From Ophelia neglecta (taxonomy: Eukaryota), in contig OZ260663.1 of the NCBI GenBank assembly GCA_965285935.1, forward strand, positions 34,906,001 through 34,970,000: 64,000 nt of DNA. The letters are read 5' to 3'. The position numbers were made by a program. Numbering within the stretch: the first letter of the stretch is position 1; every line of letters starts with the position of its first letter. Below are positions 21,001 through 57,000 of the stretch, piece by piece.

Positions 21001-24000
21001 ACTAAAGAGAATATTTTAGTCACTAGATAGCATCAATCGTGTACAAATGTTTATTTAAAACAAACAAGCTACCATTTTGACAAAAATGCTCATCTGAGGC
21101 TTTAGTCATCAGAATGAAACGGCAGCCTCTCTCTGATAAACAAGTGTTAAGTAAGTTAAACGTAGTTGTATTGTATACAACTTTTTAAATGACACTGCAT
21201 GCTTTTGTTTAATTCTTATTACTCATACTTAAATTGAGGCAATTTTCAGAAGAAATTGATTCTGCTTAAATGTAGTAAAATAGAAAGTTGCTTGATATTT
21301 GTGTAGCTTATTTGCTATCAAATCTCCTGAAAACCTGTTGTAAGCCATGCCTCCGTCTCCCCTCCTCCTTCAAGCAGCTAAGTAAAAAGGTCAAATAATG
21401 ATAAAAAATAAAAATAGTTAATGTCAACTTATGTACGAGTCCAGATGGAAGAAAACCAAAATGAGAGTAAATCACCATTGAAATGTATGAGGGACATGTG
21501 AATGTCTTCTAAATATATATAGAGGTAAAAGATTTAAGATAGTTTTAAAAGCTGATTATGTTGATTTGATATTTGTTGGTGCTGCAGTGAGTTACTGATT
21601 AACTGGTTTTAATGTTGCATCTAATTCGTTAATAGAAACCGCGTTTTATTAATAATGACGTAAAGCAGTATTATATTTATCTCAAAGAGTGTCAAGTCTG
21701 ATTGTTTTTAATTTGACTGAAGCAGACGAATCACAGATAAGAAATATGTTGCAATCTTTAAAGCCTTAAAGGGCTCAAGGGCTTATTGATGCTATTCTGT
21801 TATTTATATGCTCAACGTACCTGTTGAATATTTACTGTTCCTCATACTTATAACTAGGGTAATGTAACCTTTCTTACAGTGAAAATGTGTAATGTTATGT
21901 GGTTCTTAAGCGGACAGTATGAGTATAAAGTGTGGCGTCCCGCATTGTCAATTTTAGGACCCCCATTTTTTCTAGAGTGTCGAAGAATTGCCAAATACGG
22001 TTACGTGTACAATAATGTTACATGCAGAAGACTGGTCTCTTATTATATCTGGTAAATTTGTACGTTTTATGAAGGAAAACCAAGTTTAATCGCTGAGTAA
22101 TAGGCCCTAGTATATCAATTGGCTCTGCATCTGGGTGCAACAGAATATATACGTTTTGCTATGAATCGAAAGCTGATAAGGTTTGATGACTAACATTTCA
22201 TTTCTATATTTTCTGAGTGTCGTGATACGAAAACGAAGAAAAAACATCACAAAATGGGTTATTTATTGACACAACACTTATCTATTTCATATAGGGGTTA
22301 TCATAACTAAGCGGTTTTCAATCGTCTAGTTTGATAAAGCGGATTGTGAAAAAAATAACGGCCAATCTATGTCGAAAAACACTGGCGATTACACGTTTAC
22401 AGTTTACGAATAGAACAGGCACAGGGTAAGTATCATTCATTGAAAGTTACTATATTTCAAATTATGTAGCTTTTATTTGTAATAATTAATTGGGCTAGGT
22501 TAGCTTGAGGTTGACACAGATTTAGAGTGCTCGGTACTGCACAAACAGTTCGGTGAGTCAAAAGTAGCACGCTTTCTTCACACACAAACTTTTCGTTGGA
22601 CATATATTGTTAGACATCTTATTGGCATATCGTTTATATACACCTTGTACTAAACACGTTACTCAAATTGAAATCCAAATGCCTAATTCATCCAACGTGC
22701 ACCCCCTGCTACTATATTTAGTATGGTAAGGTTGTCTTGGGGGGTAACTTCTGTTTCGGTGTCCGTTTTCGCTGTAAACCAAACATCCCGATGGTTATTA
22801 TTGCATGTACACAAAGGGTATAGCACGCACAACGCACATAATAATCCTATATAATGGTTTACTACATGTTCACAATCATGTGTAATGATTTTCAGCTCTT
22901 GATCTGGGTTGTTCAGGGGGTGAGTCAGGCACCCGAGTGTAACCAGATGTTTTCACAAAACGACACCTGTCCTCTTCGTCGGTGTCATCTGATAAAAGAT
23001 CTGGTGGGGCCTCCACCGGAACGTGAACGTGACATGGTCCGTGCGCATGTGCATGGACATGCGCGTGAGTATCCTTTTGTGGTAGCGTCCGGCAGGAGTT
23101 AGTCTGATCTTGAAGATTTCGGTGATCAAATTCATGATAAAAAGGTACAACTTTAGTGCCGTTTTCATCACACAAAGGACTTTCATAGACGTGATTTTTA
23201 TTGTGGAAACACACTGCCGGCTCACCCGAATTCATTGTGATTTGTCGCTGGTATGTTTGATAGGCTGAGTCTGGGGATATTGCTGTCAGGGAGGGGTTAC
23301 GACCTTGACTTTGCACCTCCCAGACATGAGTGAATCCACAGCCATCTTTAAGCCGATGAACCTTACATTTCTGCATGGTCATTGTATCCCCGGGAGCTGG
23401 GCCCTGCAAGACAGCCTCCTGCTGTCGACGACGCTTCTGTCGGTCTCCTTGTCTAAAATAAAAGCAACACAAAGGAATTTAAAATTAAGAGTTTTAAGCC
23501 ATTAACCATTAACGAGAATTGTGCATTCAACTATAATGATCAACAAACAATTTTTAGCTTAATACATGGCAATTACATCTCCAAATTAGTGTAAACGAGG
23601 GATTAAGATGTGTTTTGTTGACATGCTTATGGCGATTAGTAAATTCTAAGGTTTATTTGCAGCGTATATTGGGATAAAAATTTAAATCCAAATGGTCGAG
23701 TACAGACATATTGACATAGATTCACAACGATGTTGAATTTTGTTGCTTCAGGTACGTATCAATAATCATTAGAATGCCAAGAAACACTTCAAAAAGATCT
23801 ATGATATATACCCGTTCTTTAACTTATATAAGATTAATAACTGATTAGTCATTTATGGAAAGCAAATCCGGGCGGATCAAGAATACTACTAAAAGACTTG
23901 CCAGCAGTCAATATGAGAATGGAAAATAAAGGGTTCAGATTCATCTCATGTTTGTGTGTGCTTAAATTGAAAACTGTAATTTCCCATTTTTATCGCGTGT

Positions 24001-54000: not shown

Positions 54001-57000
54001 ACCGACGGAAACTGGATGTGACTTACCGTCATTAACAGCAGCTGCGCCCCCGAGCATGGCAAGAAGAAACAGAGATGATTGCAACCTCATTTTGGTATTC
54101 CTGTCCTGAAGTTCAATGACGCAAAAGCGATGAAATAATTCCTTGTTGGTTAAAGAAATCAGTCAAGGTGTCTGTCAAGCTGTACTTGCGGGTATAACGA
54201 ACACATTTCTTGTGTAAGACATGTTTTTCTGAGTTAAAACATGTATTGGTCCCTTTTGGGGGTGAGAATGTACACCTTTAGTTACTTCTTATGGTGTATG
54301 CCACAAGGCTCATAGGATCTATAGACTGTTCGGTCTGAAGGCCGGTCATAGAACGCTGCCGATATTGCCAAATTAGATCGCAAATCACCGCCTGAAGCCC
54401 GTTCTTAGCCCTGTCGATCACAACAGCCCTAGGGGCAGATTGCTTGCGAGATGATGTTTATGGGCACAAGTCCACGTGGATCCTATAGAATCAGAGTTCT
54501 GGTGCATCGGATACGGAACCCACTGCAGGGAGAGACTCTTGTTGCGCCTTCTGCATGGGTCGCTCGCTAACTCACTCATGGCGGCTCCGCACTGGTTGGT
54601 ATTCTCCCGGCCTGTGTCGTTTGCAGTTTGGCGCGCAGCAGATCCGCAGTGAATGATTCGCCCTCAGTAGGCTGAGTGGTATCAGGCGCAGCCGACACTC
54701 ATCTGCCCACTGTTCTTCTGTAAAATAGAGGTGAGAAACACAATTAAACGGCTGGCTGCTTGACATTAAAAAAAACTAGAAGTAAACTAACAATTTACAC
54801 CTTAACGATGAGAACATAGTCAATTGTTTTCATCTGCAAACTAAGTCTGGGCAATGCCGAAAGCGTCTTTCCGGGCAAAACTGATCACATGTGGTAAAGT
54901 TGAGCAAATGAAAGTCTACCCATATTAGGGTTCAACCAAATTTAATGCTCACAATGACTTTGTAGCATAAAGCTGTCTAAAGCCAGTTCTTTTAGGATTT
55001 TACCCCGATCTTTGCTCCTTTACCCCCTATGTTTAAGCCCCCTCTTTTGATAAGCCTGCCTGACTTGAGTACGGCTGGTTAATGAGCCGGAGGCGAGAGG
55101 CGATCAGGCGAGAATGTGCCTCCAATAGCTCCCTCATCAAACGGTCTTACGTCGGGCAGTTCATTTAACGCTCAAGTATATTACAAATACGGAGTACGAA
55201 TCGATGGAAATGACTTCCAAGTGCTGACTGGATGCAGGAGGCTAGAAAACCACCGCTGGCAGACGAATTGTTTAACTGCGTGCAGAAACTTTACCCAGAG
55301 GCAATGCATGGCTGCTGCCGTCTTTTTTGTCTCGTAATTAGTGCTTTTTGACCTAACATGGATCTGTCATTCCTCGTTTACTGCCGTGTTGAACCTATTA
55401 TCGCTCATGGCAATATATTCTTCAGATCCTAGTAAATCTAACGGATTCTCCATTTTATTGTGCGAATATGGCTGATGTACTTTTCTTCATGTTTTAGTTC
55501 ACAAATTACACACAACACTAAGTATAAATATGTGAAACACATCATCACTAATGATAATGTGATAAATGTGAAATGCAACATTCTATTAATACACTGCCTC
55601 ATTGCGGTGTTTAGTGTTTCCGTCAACCGGAAGTAAAGCGTCTTTATTGTGCTCTTTTTTCCATGATTTCACACTGACTCAAAATGAAGGAGAATGCATT
55701 GAGACACATCCATGATTTGCAGCCGATCTCCACGCCGTCTATTCAGTGGTATGCTTTAAATAGATGGCTCACTGCCACCTACAACTTGTCAAAACGCTCA
55801 CTTTGTTAAACGAGCAGGTATTAGGAGTTAATACCTGTCTGCCAATCGATTTGCCCAGGTAGGGGGCGCTCGACTGTCAACCTGCCACTAAACAAACTGT
55901 TAAGCACGACCTCACCTCATTCAATTGGCAAAAGGCCATCTGCAGGATTTGCTTTTGACTTTTACAAGCTGCAAACAATAGTTTACGGACGTTAACAGGT
56001 ACAATATGGTTCCAAGCTTGTTAGGCCCTACTCGATAATGCTGGAACCAGTTTCAGTTACTCGAAACCAGTTCCGATAATTCTGAGATTGAATAGCGAGT
56101 GGACAGTTTCGGTTCCAGTAAACCGTTGCAACATTTCTTCTCCAAATATTATAGAATTACTTCAAATTTATTGCAACAACAAAGAATAAGTATTCACCAT
56201 TTTTGAATTTATCTTTTACTTGCTCTTCCCCACGATTTGCCTTGATTCAACTATTGCCGCCATTTTCGGTACATTGGTTTCTCATTATCAGGTGTTTAGT
56301 TTCGCGATAGTTCCGTGAAAACTGAAACATTACCATCTCCCGAAATGGTTTCGCAGTTTCACCGAAACTAGTTTGTGTTTCAATATTAACAAGTGGGCAG
56401 TTCTGCAGTCAACGTCTTGGATCGAGCGTAGCCGTACAAATTACATACAACACGAGAATTATGGAAATTAAAAAAAAAATATATAAATAACAAATGATTG
56501 GCCTACACACTTGCAATAACTTAAATCATATCATACAGGCTCGATTCTTTGCATTCAATTAAACCGGGCAAAGCGCACCGGAGGTCGTGCATCCTCACGC
56601 GCATCTTTTCTTGGTGCACCCAGCAACCGTTGCCACTTATACCAATTTTCCTCAGTTGCCCTGTCCGGAACCAGTATAGCGCAGGCTTAAACAAACCCAG
56701 TTTTATAATTGAGTGTAAACAGGTCGACGCATAATCTCCAATATGGCTTCTTTTTACATATTCAATGATCACGTGTACCTATTACTGTAAGAGCCTCGCT
56801 ACGCGAGGCTGGGCACTTCGGGCCAGCTACGCAGAATATTAAACAGGAGGTCTTAAATTTAACGAAATATACATTTTACAGCACATGTTTTGTAAAACAA
56901 TAGACGCTGCTATGAGTAGATGTTGAACGAAACCTCTTGTATCCTCCCTCCACCCTCCTGCCCGTTCCGTCCCCGAGGCAATCTTGGCGTGAATGCACTC

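What the first reader, a model, noticed from the sequence alone, without database searches (positions are those of the whole stretch)
22876..54090. Orphan SUEL-CUB-sushi-TM receptor architecture
Seen: a complete 542-aa type I membrane protein with lectin-like, CUB and CCP-like modules and a long signalling-type tail. Known: SUEL domains occur in rhamnose-binding lectins, latrophilins and EVA-1/EVA1C, while CUB plus CCP occur in SEZ6, CSMD and complement proteases. I know of no characterised protein with this exact SUEL-CUB-CCP-TM order. Inference: a member of an uncharacterised invertebrate receptor family for recognition, adhesion or guidance.
Basis: partly seen in the sequence, partly recalled or inferred. 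Interest (0 to 1): 0.65.

Follow-up and report, generated by a model that had tools for sequence, protein, structure and literature searches.

The report
Lectin-CUB-sushi-like membrane receptor gene
This is a real-looking seven-exon animal gene for a single-pass surface receptor built from a lectin-like, a CUB and a sushi-like module; it belongs to an uncharacterised family also found in annelid worms, so it is modestly interesting, not unique.

Summary
On the minus strand, 54090..22876, seven open exons with canonical GT-AG borders sum to 1626 nt, or 542 codons. They are: signal peptide, SUEL lectin (Pfam 44.6 bits), divergent CUB (22.0 bits against a cut-off of 21.4; CUB fold), a 50-aa four-Cys/Trp sushi-like module (no Pfam hit; confident model whose nearest folds are CCP modules, not significant), a linker mini-exon, a TM segment and a 191-aa tail.

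The architecture is not an orphan. Full-length proteins with the same colinear order exist. The four that carry names are "hypothetical proteins" of the annelids Capitella teleta and Paralvinella palmiformis. An Atlas cluster of 106 members is mostly Annelida.

Three short tail motifs are shared, including W-E/Q-L/V-Q and Y-E-S/T-P. The lectin domain lacks three of the four sugar-contact residues defined for latrophilin RBL.

No characterised member turned up in seven literature searches. My best reading is an adhesion or co-receptor-type receptor that binds a protein ligand and signals through tyrosine motifs. That function is inferred and untested.

The exons were searched one by one; the joined protein was not built.

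The parts
54027..54090 (-). Exon 1: start codon (54090-54088) and signal peptide, 21 codons + 1 nt. Donor ACG|gtaagt.
   Evidence: In a scan of 31.4-64 kb, two candidates passed the filter for an ATG plus a hydrophobic core plus a phase-1 donor. This one has KD 2.27 and a 8/9 donor match; the other (34657) is not signal-like.
31418..54026 (-). Intron 1, 22,609 nt. It holds four satellite arrays (43588-44342, 46576-47250, 47250-47607, 48194-51985).
   Evidence: Tandem Repeats Finder. No Pfam domain in any ORF >= 60 aa outside the satellites, which were left out of the scan.
31139..31417 (-). Exon 2, phase 1-1: SUEL / rhamnose-binding-lectin-type domain (P0002).
   Evidence: Pfam PF02140: 44.6 bits, E 1.8e-11. 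PDB: RBL 5h4s 3.9e-10, C. elegans LAT-1 8suf_E 7.9e-8, ADGRL1-3. 56% identity to Capitella P0067 residues 23-111.
30017..30433 (-). Exon 3, phase 1-1: divergent CUB domain (P0003) with a ~25-residue low-confidence loop.
   Evidence: Pfam CUB 22.0 bits against a cut-off of 21.4. 1007 relatives at E <= 1e-3. AF2 pLDDT 86.7. Foldseek top hits are spermadhesin, Neto2, MASP, cubilin, TSG-6 and neuropilin CUBs; 2 hits have E <= 1e-3.
25149..25301 (-). Exon 4, phase 1-1: 50-residue sushi/CCP-like module (P0004) with an N-x-T sequon after the second Cys.
   Evidence: G2 C3 C25 C36 W41 C48 are invariant in 15 sequences. AF2 pLDDT 90.3. Fold hits include MASP-1, C6 and beta2-GPI, with TMq up to 0.73 and E >= 0.28. 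No Pfam hit. 50% identity to P0067 residues 310-357.
24944..24997 (-). Exon 5, 54 nt, phase 1-1: juxtamembrane linker mini-exon. Skipping it would keep the frame.
   Evidence: Brute-force search of the CCP-TM interval: acceptor tttttttcag, donor gtaaac. It ends in L-P-S-Y, like the L-P-F/L-G just before the TM segment of homologues. It brings the total to 542 codons. This is the least certain exon.
24692..24776 (-). Exon 6, phase 1-2: transmembrane segment (P0005).
   Evidence: KD mean 2.57. Sequence and splice sites. 48% identity to the P0067 TM segment, residues 420-446.
22876..23452 (-). Exon 7: 191-codon cytoplasmic tail (P0006) plus the stop codon (22878-22876). It has a basic stop-transfer stretch, motifs F-T-H-V-W-E-V-Q, V-Y-E-S-P and F-Y-H-E-F-D, and a His-rich low-complexity stretch.
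   Evidence: Motifs shared with homologues. Weak colinear match to the P0067 tail, E 3.9e-4 in a 6-sequence database. No Pfam family at E <= 10.

Best explanation
This is a protein-coding gene of a non-human, probably spiralian (annelid-like) animal. It encodes a single-pass type I surface receptor.

Shown:
- Ectodomain order: signal peptide, one latrophilin/RBL-type SUEL domain, one divergent CUB domain, one minimal sushi-like module, a short linker, then one TM helix.
- Each ectodomain module is one phase 1-1 exon, the classical layout of exon-shuffled extracellular modules.
- A 191-residue tail carries three short motifs conserved across the family.
- The gene belongs to an uncharacterised family with the same colinear order.

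Inferred:
- The SUEL domain has lost most residues that contact rhamnose or galactose in latrophilin RBL. It therefore most likely binds a protein partner (or a non-canonical glycan), as argued for receptor-borne RBL domains. CUB and the sushi-like module would add binding surface or spacing.
- After ligand engagement the tail is read through its tyrosine motifs. Y-E-S-P fits the pYxxP type that recruits Crk/Abl-class SH2 domains in the DCBLD scaffolding receptors. F-Y-H-E-F fits YxxPhi sorting signals.
- In short, it would be an adhesion or co-receptor-type scaffold, not an enzyme or a soluble lectin.
For: Gene model: seven open exons, GT-AG borders, consistent phases, 542 codons.

Domains:
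- SUEL above the Pfam cut-off.
- CUB fold.
- Sushi-like Cys/Trp pattern and model.
- TM and signal hydrophobicity.

Family:
- The CUB exon has 1007, 207 and 1 relatives at E <= 1e-3, 1e-10 and 1e-30.
- Exon-by-exon colinearity with Capitella P0067: SUEL 7e-38, CUB 2e-22, CCP 4e-16, TM 1.7e-5, tail 3.9e-4.
- Further full-length relatives appear.
- The Atlas cluster 'SUEL-type lectin domain-containing protein' has 106 members, Annelida commonest, with scores 0.97 and 0.98 for two homologues.

Tail motifs (16 sequences including the window's tail):
- WE/Q(L/V)-type motif in 9 of 16.
- YE(S/T)P in 8 of 16.
- [YF]x[EV][LF]D in the tail in 6 of 16.
- All three occur in the same order in the window's tail.

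Sugar site. Vakonakis et al. 2008 (PMC2430599, passages) name Glu42, Tyr63, Gly117 and Lys120, and report that E42Q and K120R abolish or strongly reduce binding.
- The window has Gln, Tyr, Arg and Ala at the aligned places.
- Across the family the Lys equivalent is present in 0 of 19 domains, the Gly equivalent in 0 of 19, and the Glu equivalent in 6 of 15.

Topology: the N-x-S/T sequon after the second Cys of the sushi-like module is kept in 9 of 13 homologues and in the window.

pYxxP precedent: DCBLD1/2 and CRKL (PMC6029619; title and start of abstract only).
Against: - No transcript evidence. Exon 1 lies 22.6 kb upstream and is assigned by signal only. Exon 5 rests on splice signals and a short juxtamembrane resemblance.
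- The word-index search of longer proteins with the CUB exon found nothing, so no full-length model of this very gene was seen in the protein set.
- The sushi-like exon has no Pfam or PDB sequence match, and its fold matches are not significant (0 of 500 at E <= 1e-3).
- CUB is at the Pfam threshold: 21.3 on the ORF, which is below it, and 22.0 on the exon.
- Loop 2 of the SUEL domain is one residue longer than in latrophilin, so the Gly117/Lys120 equivalences are approximate. Six of 15 family members keep the Glu, so sugar binding in some members is not excluded.
- Tail motifs are absent from 7 or 8 of the 16 sequences examined, some of which are truncated models.
- No phosphorylation, ligand or expression data exist.
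Confidence: 0.5

Rival explanations
1. Pattern-recognition lectin receptor. The SUEL domain binds microbial rhamnose- or galactose-containing glycans, CUB and the sushi-like module act as in complement-type proteins, and the receptor triggers uptake or immune signalling.
For: - SUEL/RBL lectins of marine invertebrates and fish bind such sugars. The best PDB sequence match of the exon is a soluble L-rhamnose-binding lectin, 5h4s, 3.9e-10.
- CUB plus CCP is the module pair of MASP/C1r/C1s, which are the top fold matches of both models.
- A YxxPhi-like motif in the tail could drive endocytosis.
- Glu at Cys+1 is kept in 6 of 15 family members.
Against: - The window's domain has Gln for Glu42 and Ala for Lys120. 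Both classes of change abolish or strongly reduce binding in latrophilin RBL (PMC2430599 passages).
- The Lys equivalent is present in 0 of 19 family domains.
- There is a single lectin domain, whereas soluble RBLs act as tandem repeats or multimers (PMC2430599 passages).
- No protease domain is present.
Confidence: 0.2
2. Auxiliary subunit of an ion channel or of another receptor, in the manner of the CUB-bearing single-pass proteins NETO1/2. On this reading the ectodomain binds the partner in cis and tunes its trafficking or gating. The C. elegans examples SOL-1 and LEV-10 are recalled from memory, not from a call.
For: - Neto2 CUB in GluK2 complexes is among the best fold matches of the CUB model: 9n4p_E 5.4e-4 and 7f59_E.
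- NETO clusters appear among the Atlas feature neighbours at 0.80-0.81, which is a lead only.
- The layout is single-pass with a conserved tail.
Against: - Fold matches to any CUB are expected for any CUB.
- There is no LDLa module.
- In the alignment with MASP-1/3 CUB1, Ser stands at both places that I recall as the Ca2+ ligands Glu49 and Asp57. The residue roles are recalled and come from no call.
- Atlas scores under 0.9 are leads only.
Confidence: 0.12
3. The model is partly wrong or the gene is dead: exon 1 or exon 5 does not belong to it, or the locus is an untranscribed pseudogene.
For: - No RNA data.
- Intron 1 is 22.6 kb long and full of satellites.
- Exon 5 was found by brute force.
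- No full-length model of this gene was found in the protein set.
Against: - All seven exons are open, with canonical sites and matching phases.
- All invariant Cys, Trp and Gly residues of the family are kept.
- The tail keeps three family motifs in order.
- A related genome has the CUB exon at 84% identity, dropping to 70% when the ORF runs on into the intron. That is what purifying selection on the exon would give.
- Only one good signal-peptide exon exists upstream.
Confidence: 0.1

Closest known systems
Uncharacterised annelid proteins: Capitella teleta CAPTEDRAFT_225510 (P0067) and CAPTEDRAFT_209714 (P0159); Paralvinella palmiformis LSH36_143g01023 (P0161) and LSH36_1776g00006 (P0164)
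   Same: Same colinear order: signal peptide, SUEL, CUB, four-Cys/Trp module, TM, tail. Identity to P0067 is 56% (SUEL), 39% (CUB) and 50% (CCP-like). The tail motifs WE(L/V)Q and YESP are shared with P0067.
   Different: P0067 has about 50-60 extra residues after the CUB and after the CCP-like module; these may be model artefacts. P0164 is two such units in one model. The other three named proteins lack the tail motifs. None has a described function.
EVA-1 / EVA1C, the SLT-1/Slit co-receptor of C. elegans (known to me through the passages of PMC2430599)
   Same: A single-pass type I receptor whose N-terminal part is a SUEL/RBL domain with substituted sugar-contact residues. A co-receptor role is the model I borrow.
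   Different: EVA-1 has two RBL domains and no CUB or sushi module. The Atlas EVA1C cluster carries PF14851 (FAM176) in 66% of members. The window's tail has no Pfam family at E <= 10, and only one SUEL exon exists in the window.
Latrophilins (ADGRL1-3, C. elegans LAT-1)
   Same: They have the closest solved receptor-borne lectin domains: family profile against LAT-1 8suf_E 6.8e-10, and nine latrophilin sequences at E <= 3.3e-5.
   Different: Latrophilins are adhesion GPCRs with seven TM helices. Here there is one TM segment, and no GPCR-type Pfam domain in any ORF >= 60 aa of the window outside the satellite arrays, which were left out.
SEZ6 family, and DCBLD1/2, NETO1/2, CDCP1 (CUB-bearing single-pass receptors)
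   Same: CUB next to sushi-type modules, a TM segment and a signalling tail. SEZ6 is the third Atlas feature neighbour, at 0.85-0.86, which is a lead only. DCBLD tails use YxxP motifs to bind CRKL (PMC6029619, listing only).
   Different: None of these has a SUEL domain. SEZ6 has several CUB and Pfam-recognisable sushi repeats. DCBLD has LCCL and discoidin domains. NETO has LDLa. The window has one Y-x-x-P, not a cluster.

Membership tests
Annelid-type SUEL-CUB-CCP-like-TM family (Capitella CAPTEDRAFT_225510-like) | Colinear order SUEL, CUB, four-Cys module, TM, tail | tested here: met
   Exon-by-exon blastp against P0067 places the exons at 23-111, 140-257, 310-357, 420-446 and 469-580. tblastn of 16 homologues hits only these exons.
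Annelid-type SUEL-CUB-CCP-like-TM family (Capitella CAPTEDRAFT_225510-like) | Family-type CUB with the nearly invariant positions G34 P39 W40 G47 Q48 D56 F57 C83 A87 E91 C100 R105 S112 F133 | tested here: met
   Positions are numbered on the window's exon, which carries them (alignment A2, 134 sequences). 207 relatives at E <= 1e-10.
Annelid-type SUEL-CUB-CCP-like-TM family (Capitella CAPTEDRAFT_225510-like) | Conserved tail motifs WE/Q(L/V)Q and YE(S/T)P | tested here: met
   Both are present in the window's tail in the family order. They occur in 9 of 16 and 8 of 16 sequences examined.
SUEL / rhamnose-binding lectin domain (PF02140) | Profile match above the curated cut-off | tested here: met
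   44.6 bits against 31.4, covering profile positions 2-80 of 80.
Functional rhamnose/galactose-binding RBL | Sugar-contact residues Glu42, Tyr63, Gly117, Lys120 of mouse latrophilin-1 RBL (PMC2430599 passages) | tested here: not met
   The window has Gln, Tyr, Arg and Ala. The mapping in loop 2 is approximate because of a one-residue length difference.
CUB domain (PF00431) | Profile match above the cut-off, and the CUB fold | tested here: met
   22.0 bits against 21.4 on the exon, but 21.3 on the full ORF. The model has pLDDT 86.7, and nearly all of the top 50 fold matches are CUB domains, the best at 3.1e-4.
Sushi / CCP / SCR (PF00084) | Profile match to Pfam Sushi | tested here: not met
   No family at E <= 10 for the exon. 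Sushi was found in 0 of 7 homologues scanned. No CCP among the PDB sequence hits.
Sushi / CCP / SCR (PF00084) | Four Cys plus a conserved Trp, and the CCP beta-sandwich fold | tested here: inconclusive
   C3, C25, C36, W41 and C48 are invariant. The model has pLDDT 90.3. Nine of the top 10 fold matches are CCP-bearing chains, with TMq up to 0.73, but 0 matches reach E <= 1e-3. The disulfide pairing was not checked.
EVA-1 / EVA1C | Two SUEL domains and the C-terminal EVA1/FAM176 domain (PF14851) | tested here: not met
   Only one SUEL exon in the window. The tail has no Pfam family at E <= 10.
Latrophilin / adhesion GPCR | GAIN/GPS and a seven-TM region | tested here: not met
   No such Pfam domain in the 229 ORFs >= 60 aa scanned outside the satellite arrays. 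The model has a single TM segment.
SEZ6 / DCBLD / NETO | Repeated CUB-sushi units (SEZ6); LCCL plus discoidin (DCBLD); LDLa (NETO) | tested here: not met
   None of these domains was found in any ORF scanned. Atlas similarity of 0.80-0.86 is a lead only.

The most novel reading that the evidence does not exclude
The family could be a spiralian guidance or synaptic-adhesion co-receptor. On this reading its latrophilin-type lectin domain engages a protein cue of the kind that receptor-borne RBL domains bind elsewhere (Slit for EVA-1; teneurin for latrophilin, which I recall and did not check in a call). Its invariant Y-E-S-P would dock a Crk/Abl-class adaptor. That would be a previously unrecognised signalling receptor class confined to a large part of the animal tree.
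Probability: 0.15. Interest if true: 0.55.

Novelty: new variant of a known kind. Interest (0 to 1): 0.35.

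Why it matters
Receptor-borne SUEL/RBL domains are rare, and the characterised carriers named in the literature I read number three: latrophilins, EVA-1/EVA1C and PKD1-like proteins (PMC2430599 passages). The role of SUEL proteins in lophotrochozoans is called 'elusive' in the one survey I could read (PMC8878817 passages).

A conserved family that puts this domain on a CUB-sushi-like stalk, with a tail carrying invariant tyrosine motifs, gives a concrete candidate. It could be tested in annelid models by expression mapping, ectodomain pull-down and knockout. 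The gain is annotation and a testable hypothesis, not a new principle, because every module and the overall receptor layout are of known kinds.

Tried and rejected
- Word-index search of longer proteins with the CUB exon found no hit. The exhaustive search then found the family, so one search was a sensitivity failure, not evidence of absence.
- A look-up of cluster names for seven homologues could not be made. Names therefore come only from the two later homology searches, and most relatives carry neither a name nor a taxon.
- I first considered a 51-nt linker exon at 24853-24803. I rejected it because it leaves a 26-nt intron before the TM exon and has a weak donor. The 54-nt exon at 24997-24944 fits better.
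- A direct CCP-to-TM join (524 codons) is also in frame and cannot be excluded as an isoform.
- Adding the tail exon as a fragment to the full-length alignment scattered it, so I compared tail motifs by pattern instead.
- Search for a second copy or paralogue in the window: none.
- In-window interspersed repeats: only one weak pair.
- Rfam and tRNA scans: nothing.
- Literature searches for the architecture or for the Capitella locus tag found nothing relevant.
- No complex prediction was run, because no specific binding pair is claimed.

Full report
**What is there.** The window is 64 kb at about 41% G+C, with one N run at 2913-3075 far from the finding.

Splice-site inspection gives seven exons:
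- E1 54090-54027
- E2 31417-31139
- E3 30433-30017
- E4 25301-25149
- E5 24997-24944
- E6 24776-24692
- E7 23452-22879, followed by the stop at 22878-22876

All introns are GT-AG, and the phases chain without a break. The lengths (64+279+417+153+54+85+574) sum to 1626 nt, or 542 codons.

E2, E3, E4 and E5 are all phase 1-1, so each ectodomain module is one symmetrical exon. That is the classical signature of exon-shuffled extracellular modules (established knowledge).

The exons were translated, searched and folded one by one. The joined 542-residue protein was not built. Whole-protein predictions, inter-domain packing and whole-protein orthology therefore stay open.

**Are the modules real?**
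- SUEL. Pfam PF02140 scores 44.6 bits (E 1.8e-11, cut-off 31.4) over the full profile.
- CUB. PF00431 scores 22.0 bits on the exon and 21.3 on the longer ORF, against a cut-off of 21.4, so it is borderline by sequence. With an alignment of 134 relatives, the AlphaFold model has pLDDT 86.7 and pTM 0.80, apart from a loop at about residues 60-84. Nearly all of its 50 best PDB fold matches are CUB domains: spermadhesin 3.1e-4, Neto2, MASP-1/3, cubilin, TSG-6, neuropilin. Two matches reach E <= 1e-3, and TM-scores are only 0.4-0.5.
- Sushi-like exon, 50 residues. It has no Pfam match even at E 10, and its PDB sequence hits are chance-level and not CCPs. In an alignment with 14 homologues, G2, C3, C25, C36, W41 and C48 are invariant. 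The model is confident (pLDDT 90.3). Nine of its ten best fold matches are CCP-bearing chains (MASP-1, C6, MAP-1, beta2-glycoprotein I; TMq up to 0.73), but none of the 500 listed reaches E <= 1e-3. 'CCP-like' is the right wording.
- TM exon. It has the highest hydrophobicity in its interval (2.57) and is followed by a run of Arg, Lys and Gln.
- Signal peptide. A scan of everything upstream of E2 for an ATG, a hydrophobic core and a good phase-1 donor passed two candidates. The one at 54090 is the only signal-like one.

**Not an orphan.**
- A word-index search of longer proteins with the CUB exon found nothing.
- The exhaustive HMMER search of 1.84 billion representatives found 1007 proteins at E <= 1e-3, 207 at <= 1e-10 and one at <= 1e-30.
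- The best hit, P0007, is a 188-residue unspliced ORF from some related genome. It is 84% identical over the exon and falls to 70% when the match runs on into the window's intron. That pattern supports both the exon's 3' border and selection on it.
- Most hits are exon-sized fragments, but several are full length.
- The exons of the window align with Capitella teleta CAPTEDRAFT_225510 (P0067) in the same order:
  - SUEL, 56% identity, E 7e-38
  - CUB, 39%, E 2e-22
  - CCP-like, 50%, E 4e-16
  - TM, 48%
  - tail, 24%, E 3.9e-4 in a six-sequence database
- Two further searches gave six and seven relatives.
- The only four with names are 'hypothetical protein' entries: Capitella teleta (two genes) and Paralvinella palmiformis (two; one model, P0164, holds two units in tandem).
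- The ESM Atlas places two homologues (P0067 at 0.97, P0165 at 0.98) in one cluster, 'SUEL-type lectin domain-containing protein'. It has 106 members, with Annelida commonest.
- The next Atlas neighbours are a Rotifera-dominated cluster at 0.88 and SEZ6 at 0.85-0.86. Both are leads only.
- Cluster names could not be looked up.
- I therefore take the window for a non-human, probably annelid-like spiralian genome. The family's full range is unknown because most relatives carry no taxon.
- The window itself holds one copy. tblastn with 16 homologues hits only the three ectodomain exons. No other ORF >= 60 aa outside the satellite arrays, which were left out, has a Pfam domain at E <= 0.01 above its cut-off.

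**How it most likely works.**

The lectin domain.
- Its closest solved receptor-borne relatives are latrophilin lectin domains. The family profile scores 6.8e-10 against C. elegans LAT-1 and matches nine latrophilin sequences. The exon alone scores 7.9e-8.
- Vakonakis et al. 2008 (PMC2430599; passages read) define the rhamnose contacts of mouse latrophilin-1 RBL as Glu42 (the residue after the first Cys), Tyr63, Gly117 and Lys120.
- They show that E42Q and K120R abolish or strongly reduce binding. They argue that receptor-borne RBL domains with such substitutions, EVA-1 included, bind non-carbohydrate ligands.
- In the HMMER alignment with that chain and in a pattern count, the window has Gln, Tyr, Arg and Ala at these places.
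- Across 19 family domains the Lys and Gly equivalents are never present. Glu is kept in 6 of 15.
- Loop 2 is one residue longer here, so those two equivalences are approximate.
- I infer a protein ligand, or a non-canonical glycan.

The CUB domain. In the alignment with MASP-1/3 CUB1, Ser stands at both places that I recall as the Ca2+ ligands Glu49 and Asp57. The residue roles are recalled and come from no call. If that holds, this is not a canonical Ca2+-dependent ligand-binding CUB.

The tail.
- It has no Pfam family but shares three motifs with relatives, in the same order.
- The three are F-T-H-V-W-E-V-Q (type present in 9 of 16 sequences), V-Y-E-S-P (8 of 16) and F-Y-H-E-F-D (6 of 16 in the tail).
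- Y-E-S-P has the YxxP form used by the CUB-bearing scaffolding receptors DCBLD1/2 to recruit CRKL after Fyn/Abl phosphorylation (PMC6029619; title and start of abstract only).
- The third motif fits a YxxPhi sorting signal (established knowledge).
- A conserved N-x-S/T sequon in the sushi-like module (9 of 13 homologues plus the window) fits the outside-facing topology.

What is shown is the gene anatomy, the domain identities and the family. Ligand class, phosphorylation and biological role are inferred.

**Rivals.** I weigh three, and give the evidence for and against each in the Rival explanations section:
- an immune pattern-recognition lectin;
- an auxiliary subunit in the NETO manner;
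- a partly wrong or dead gene model.

**Comparison with known systems.**
- The gene is not EVA-1/EVA1C: it has one SUEL domain, not two, and no FAM176 domain.
- It is not a latrophilin: it has one TM segment and no GPCR-type domain.
- It is not SEZ6, DCBLD or NETO: their defining modules are absent, and none of them has a SUEL domain.
- It works most like the first in ligand logic and like DCBLD in tail logic.

**Literature.**
- Seven searches found no characterised protein with this architecture.
- They covered SUEL/CUB/sushi/transmembrane, the Capitella locus tag, 'SUEL-type lectin' with 'CUB domain', Gal_Lectin/CUB/Sushi, rhamnose-binding lectin with CUB and domain architecture, EVA-1/SUEL/SAX-3, and the automatic family name.
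- A rotifer lectin survey (PMC8878817, passages) says the role of SUEL proteins in lophotrochozoans 'remains elusive'. It notes SUEL domains in large membrane proteins of bdelloids.
- An Aplysia survey lists three SUEL genes without architecture (PMC9334734, passages).
- The supplementary gene lists of both papers could not be seen and may include members of this family.
- Subscription journals are not covered by the library.

**Verdict.** The thing is a new variant built of known modules, already present in databases as unnamed predictions. Interest is moderate to low (0.35).

Noticed in passing
window 48194-51985 (also 46576-47250, 47250-47607, 43588-44342): Four satellite arrays sit inside intron 1. 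The largest has a 114-bp unit (itself two ~55-bp halves), 31 copies and 95% matches over about 3.5-3.8 kb. The others have units of 41, 28 and 39/121 bp. They create long spurious plus-strand ORFs and the strong negative GC skew at 46-52 kb.
   Followed up: partly
window 14618-14791 and 30546-30718: This is the only in-window dispersed repeat pair outside the satellites: 177 nt, 72% identity, inverted. One copy lies in intron 2 of the gene. It may be a decayed mobile-element fragment.
   Followed up: no
window 22985-23045 (minus strand, within exon 7): A His/Ala/Val-rich low-complexity stretch in the tail (H-A-H-V-H-A-H-A-H...H-V-H-V) looks microsatellite-derived and is not shared with homologues.
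   Followed up: no
window 1-22000 and 54200-64000: No ORF >= 60 aa in either flank has a Pfam match above its cut-off. The one weak hit is HECT_2 at 15.4 bits, below its cut-off of 22. There were no Rfam or tRNA hits anywhere in the window. The receptor gene is the only recognisable gene in 64 kb.
   Followed up: partly
protein P0164 (Paralvinella palmiformis LSH36_1776g00006), not in the window: This 786-residue model contains two complete SUEL-CUB-CCP-like units one after the other. It is probably two tandem paralogues fused by gene prediction, which hints at local duplication of the family in annelids.
   Followed up: no
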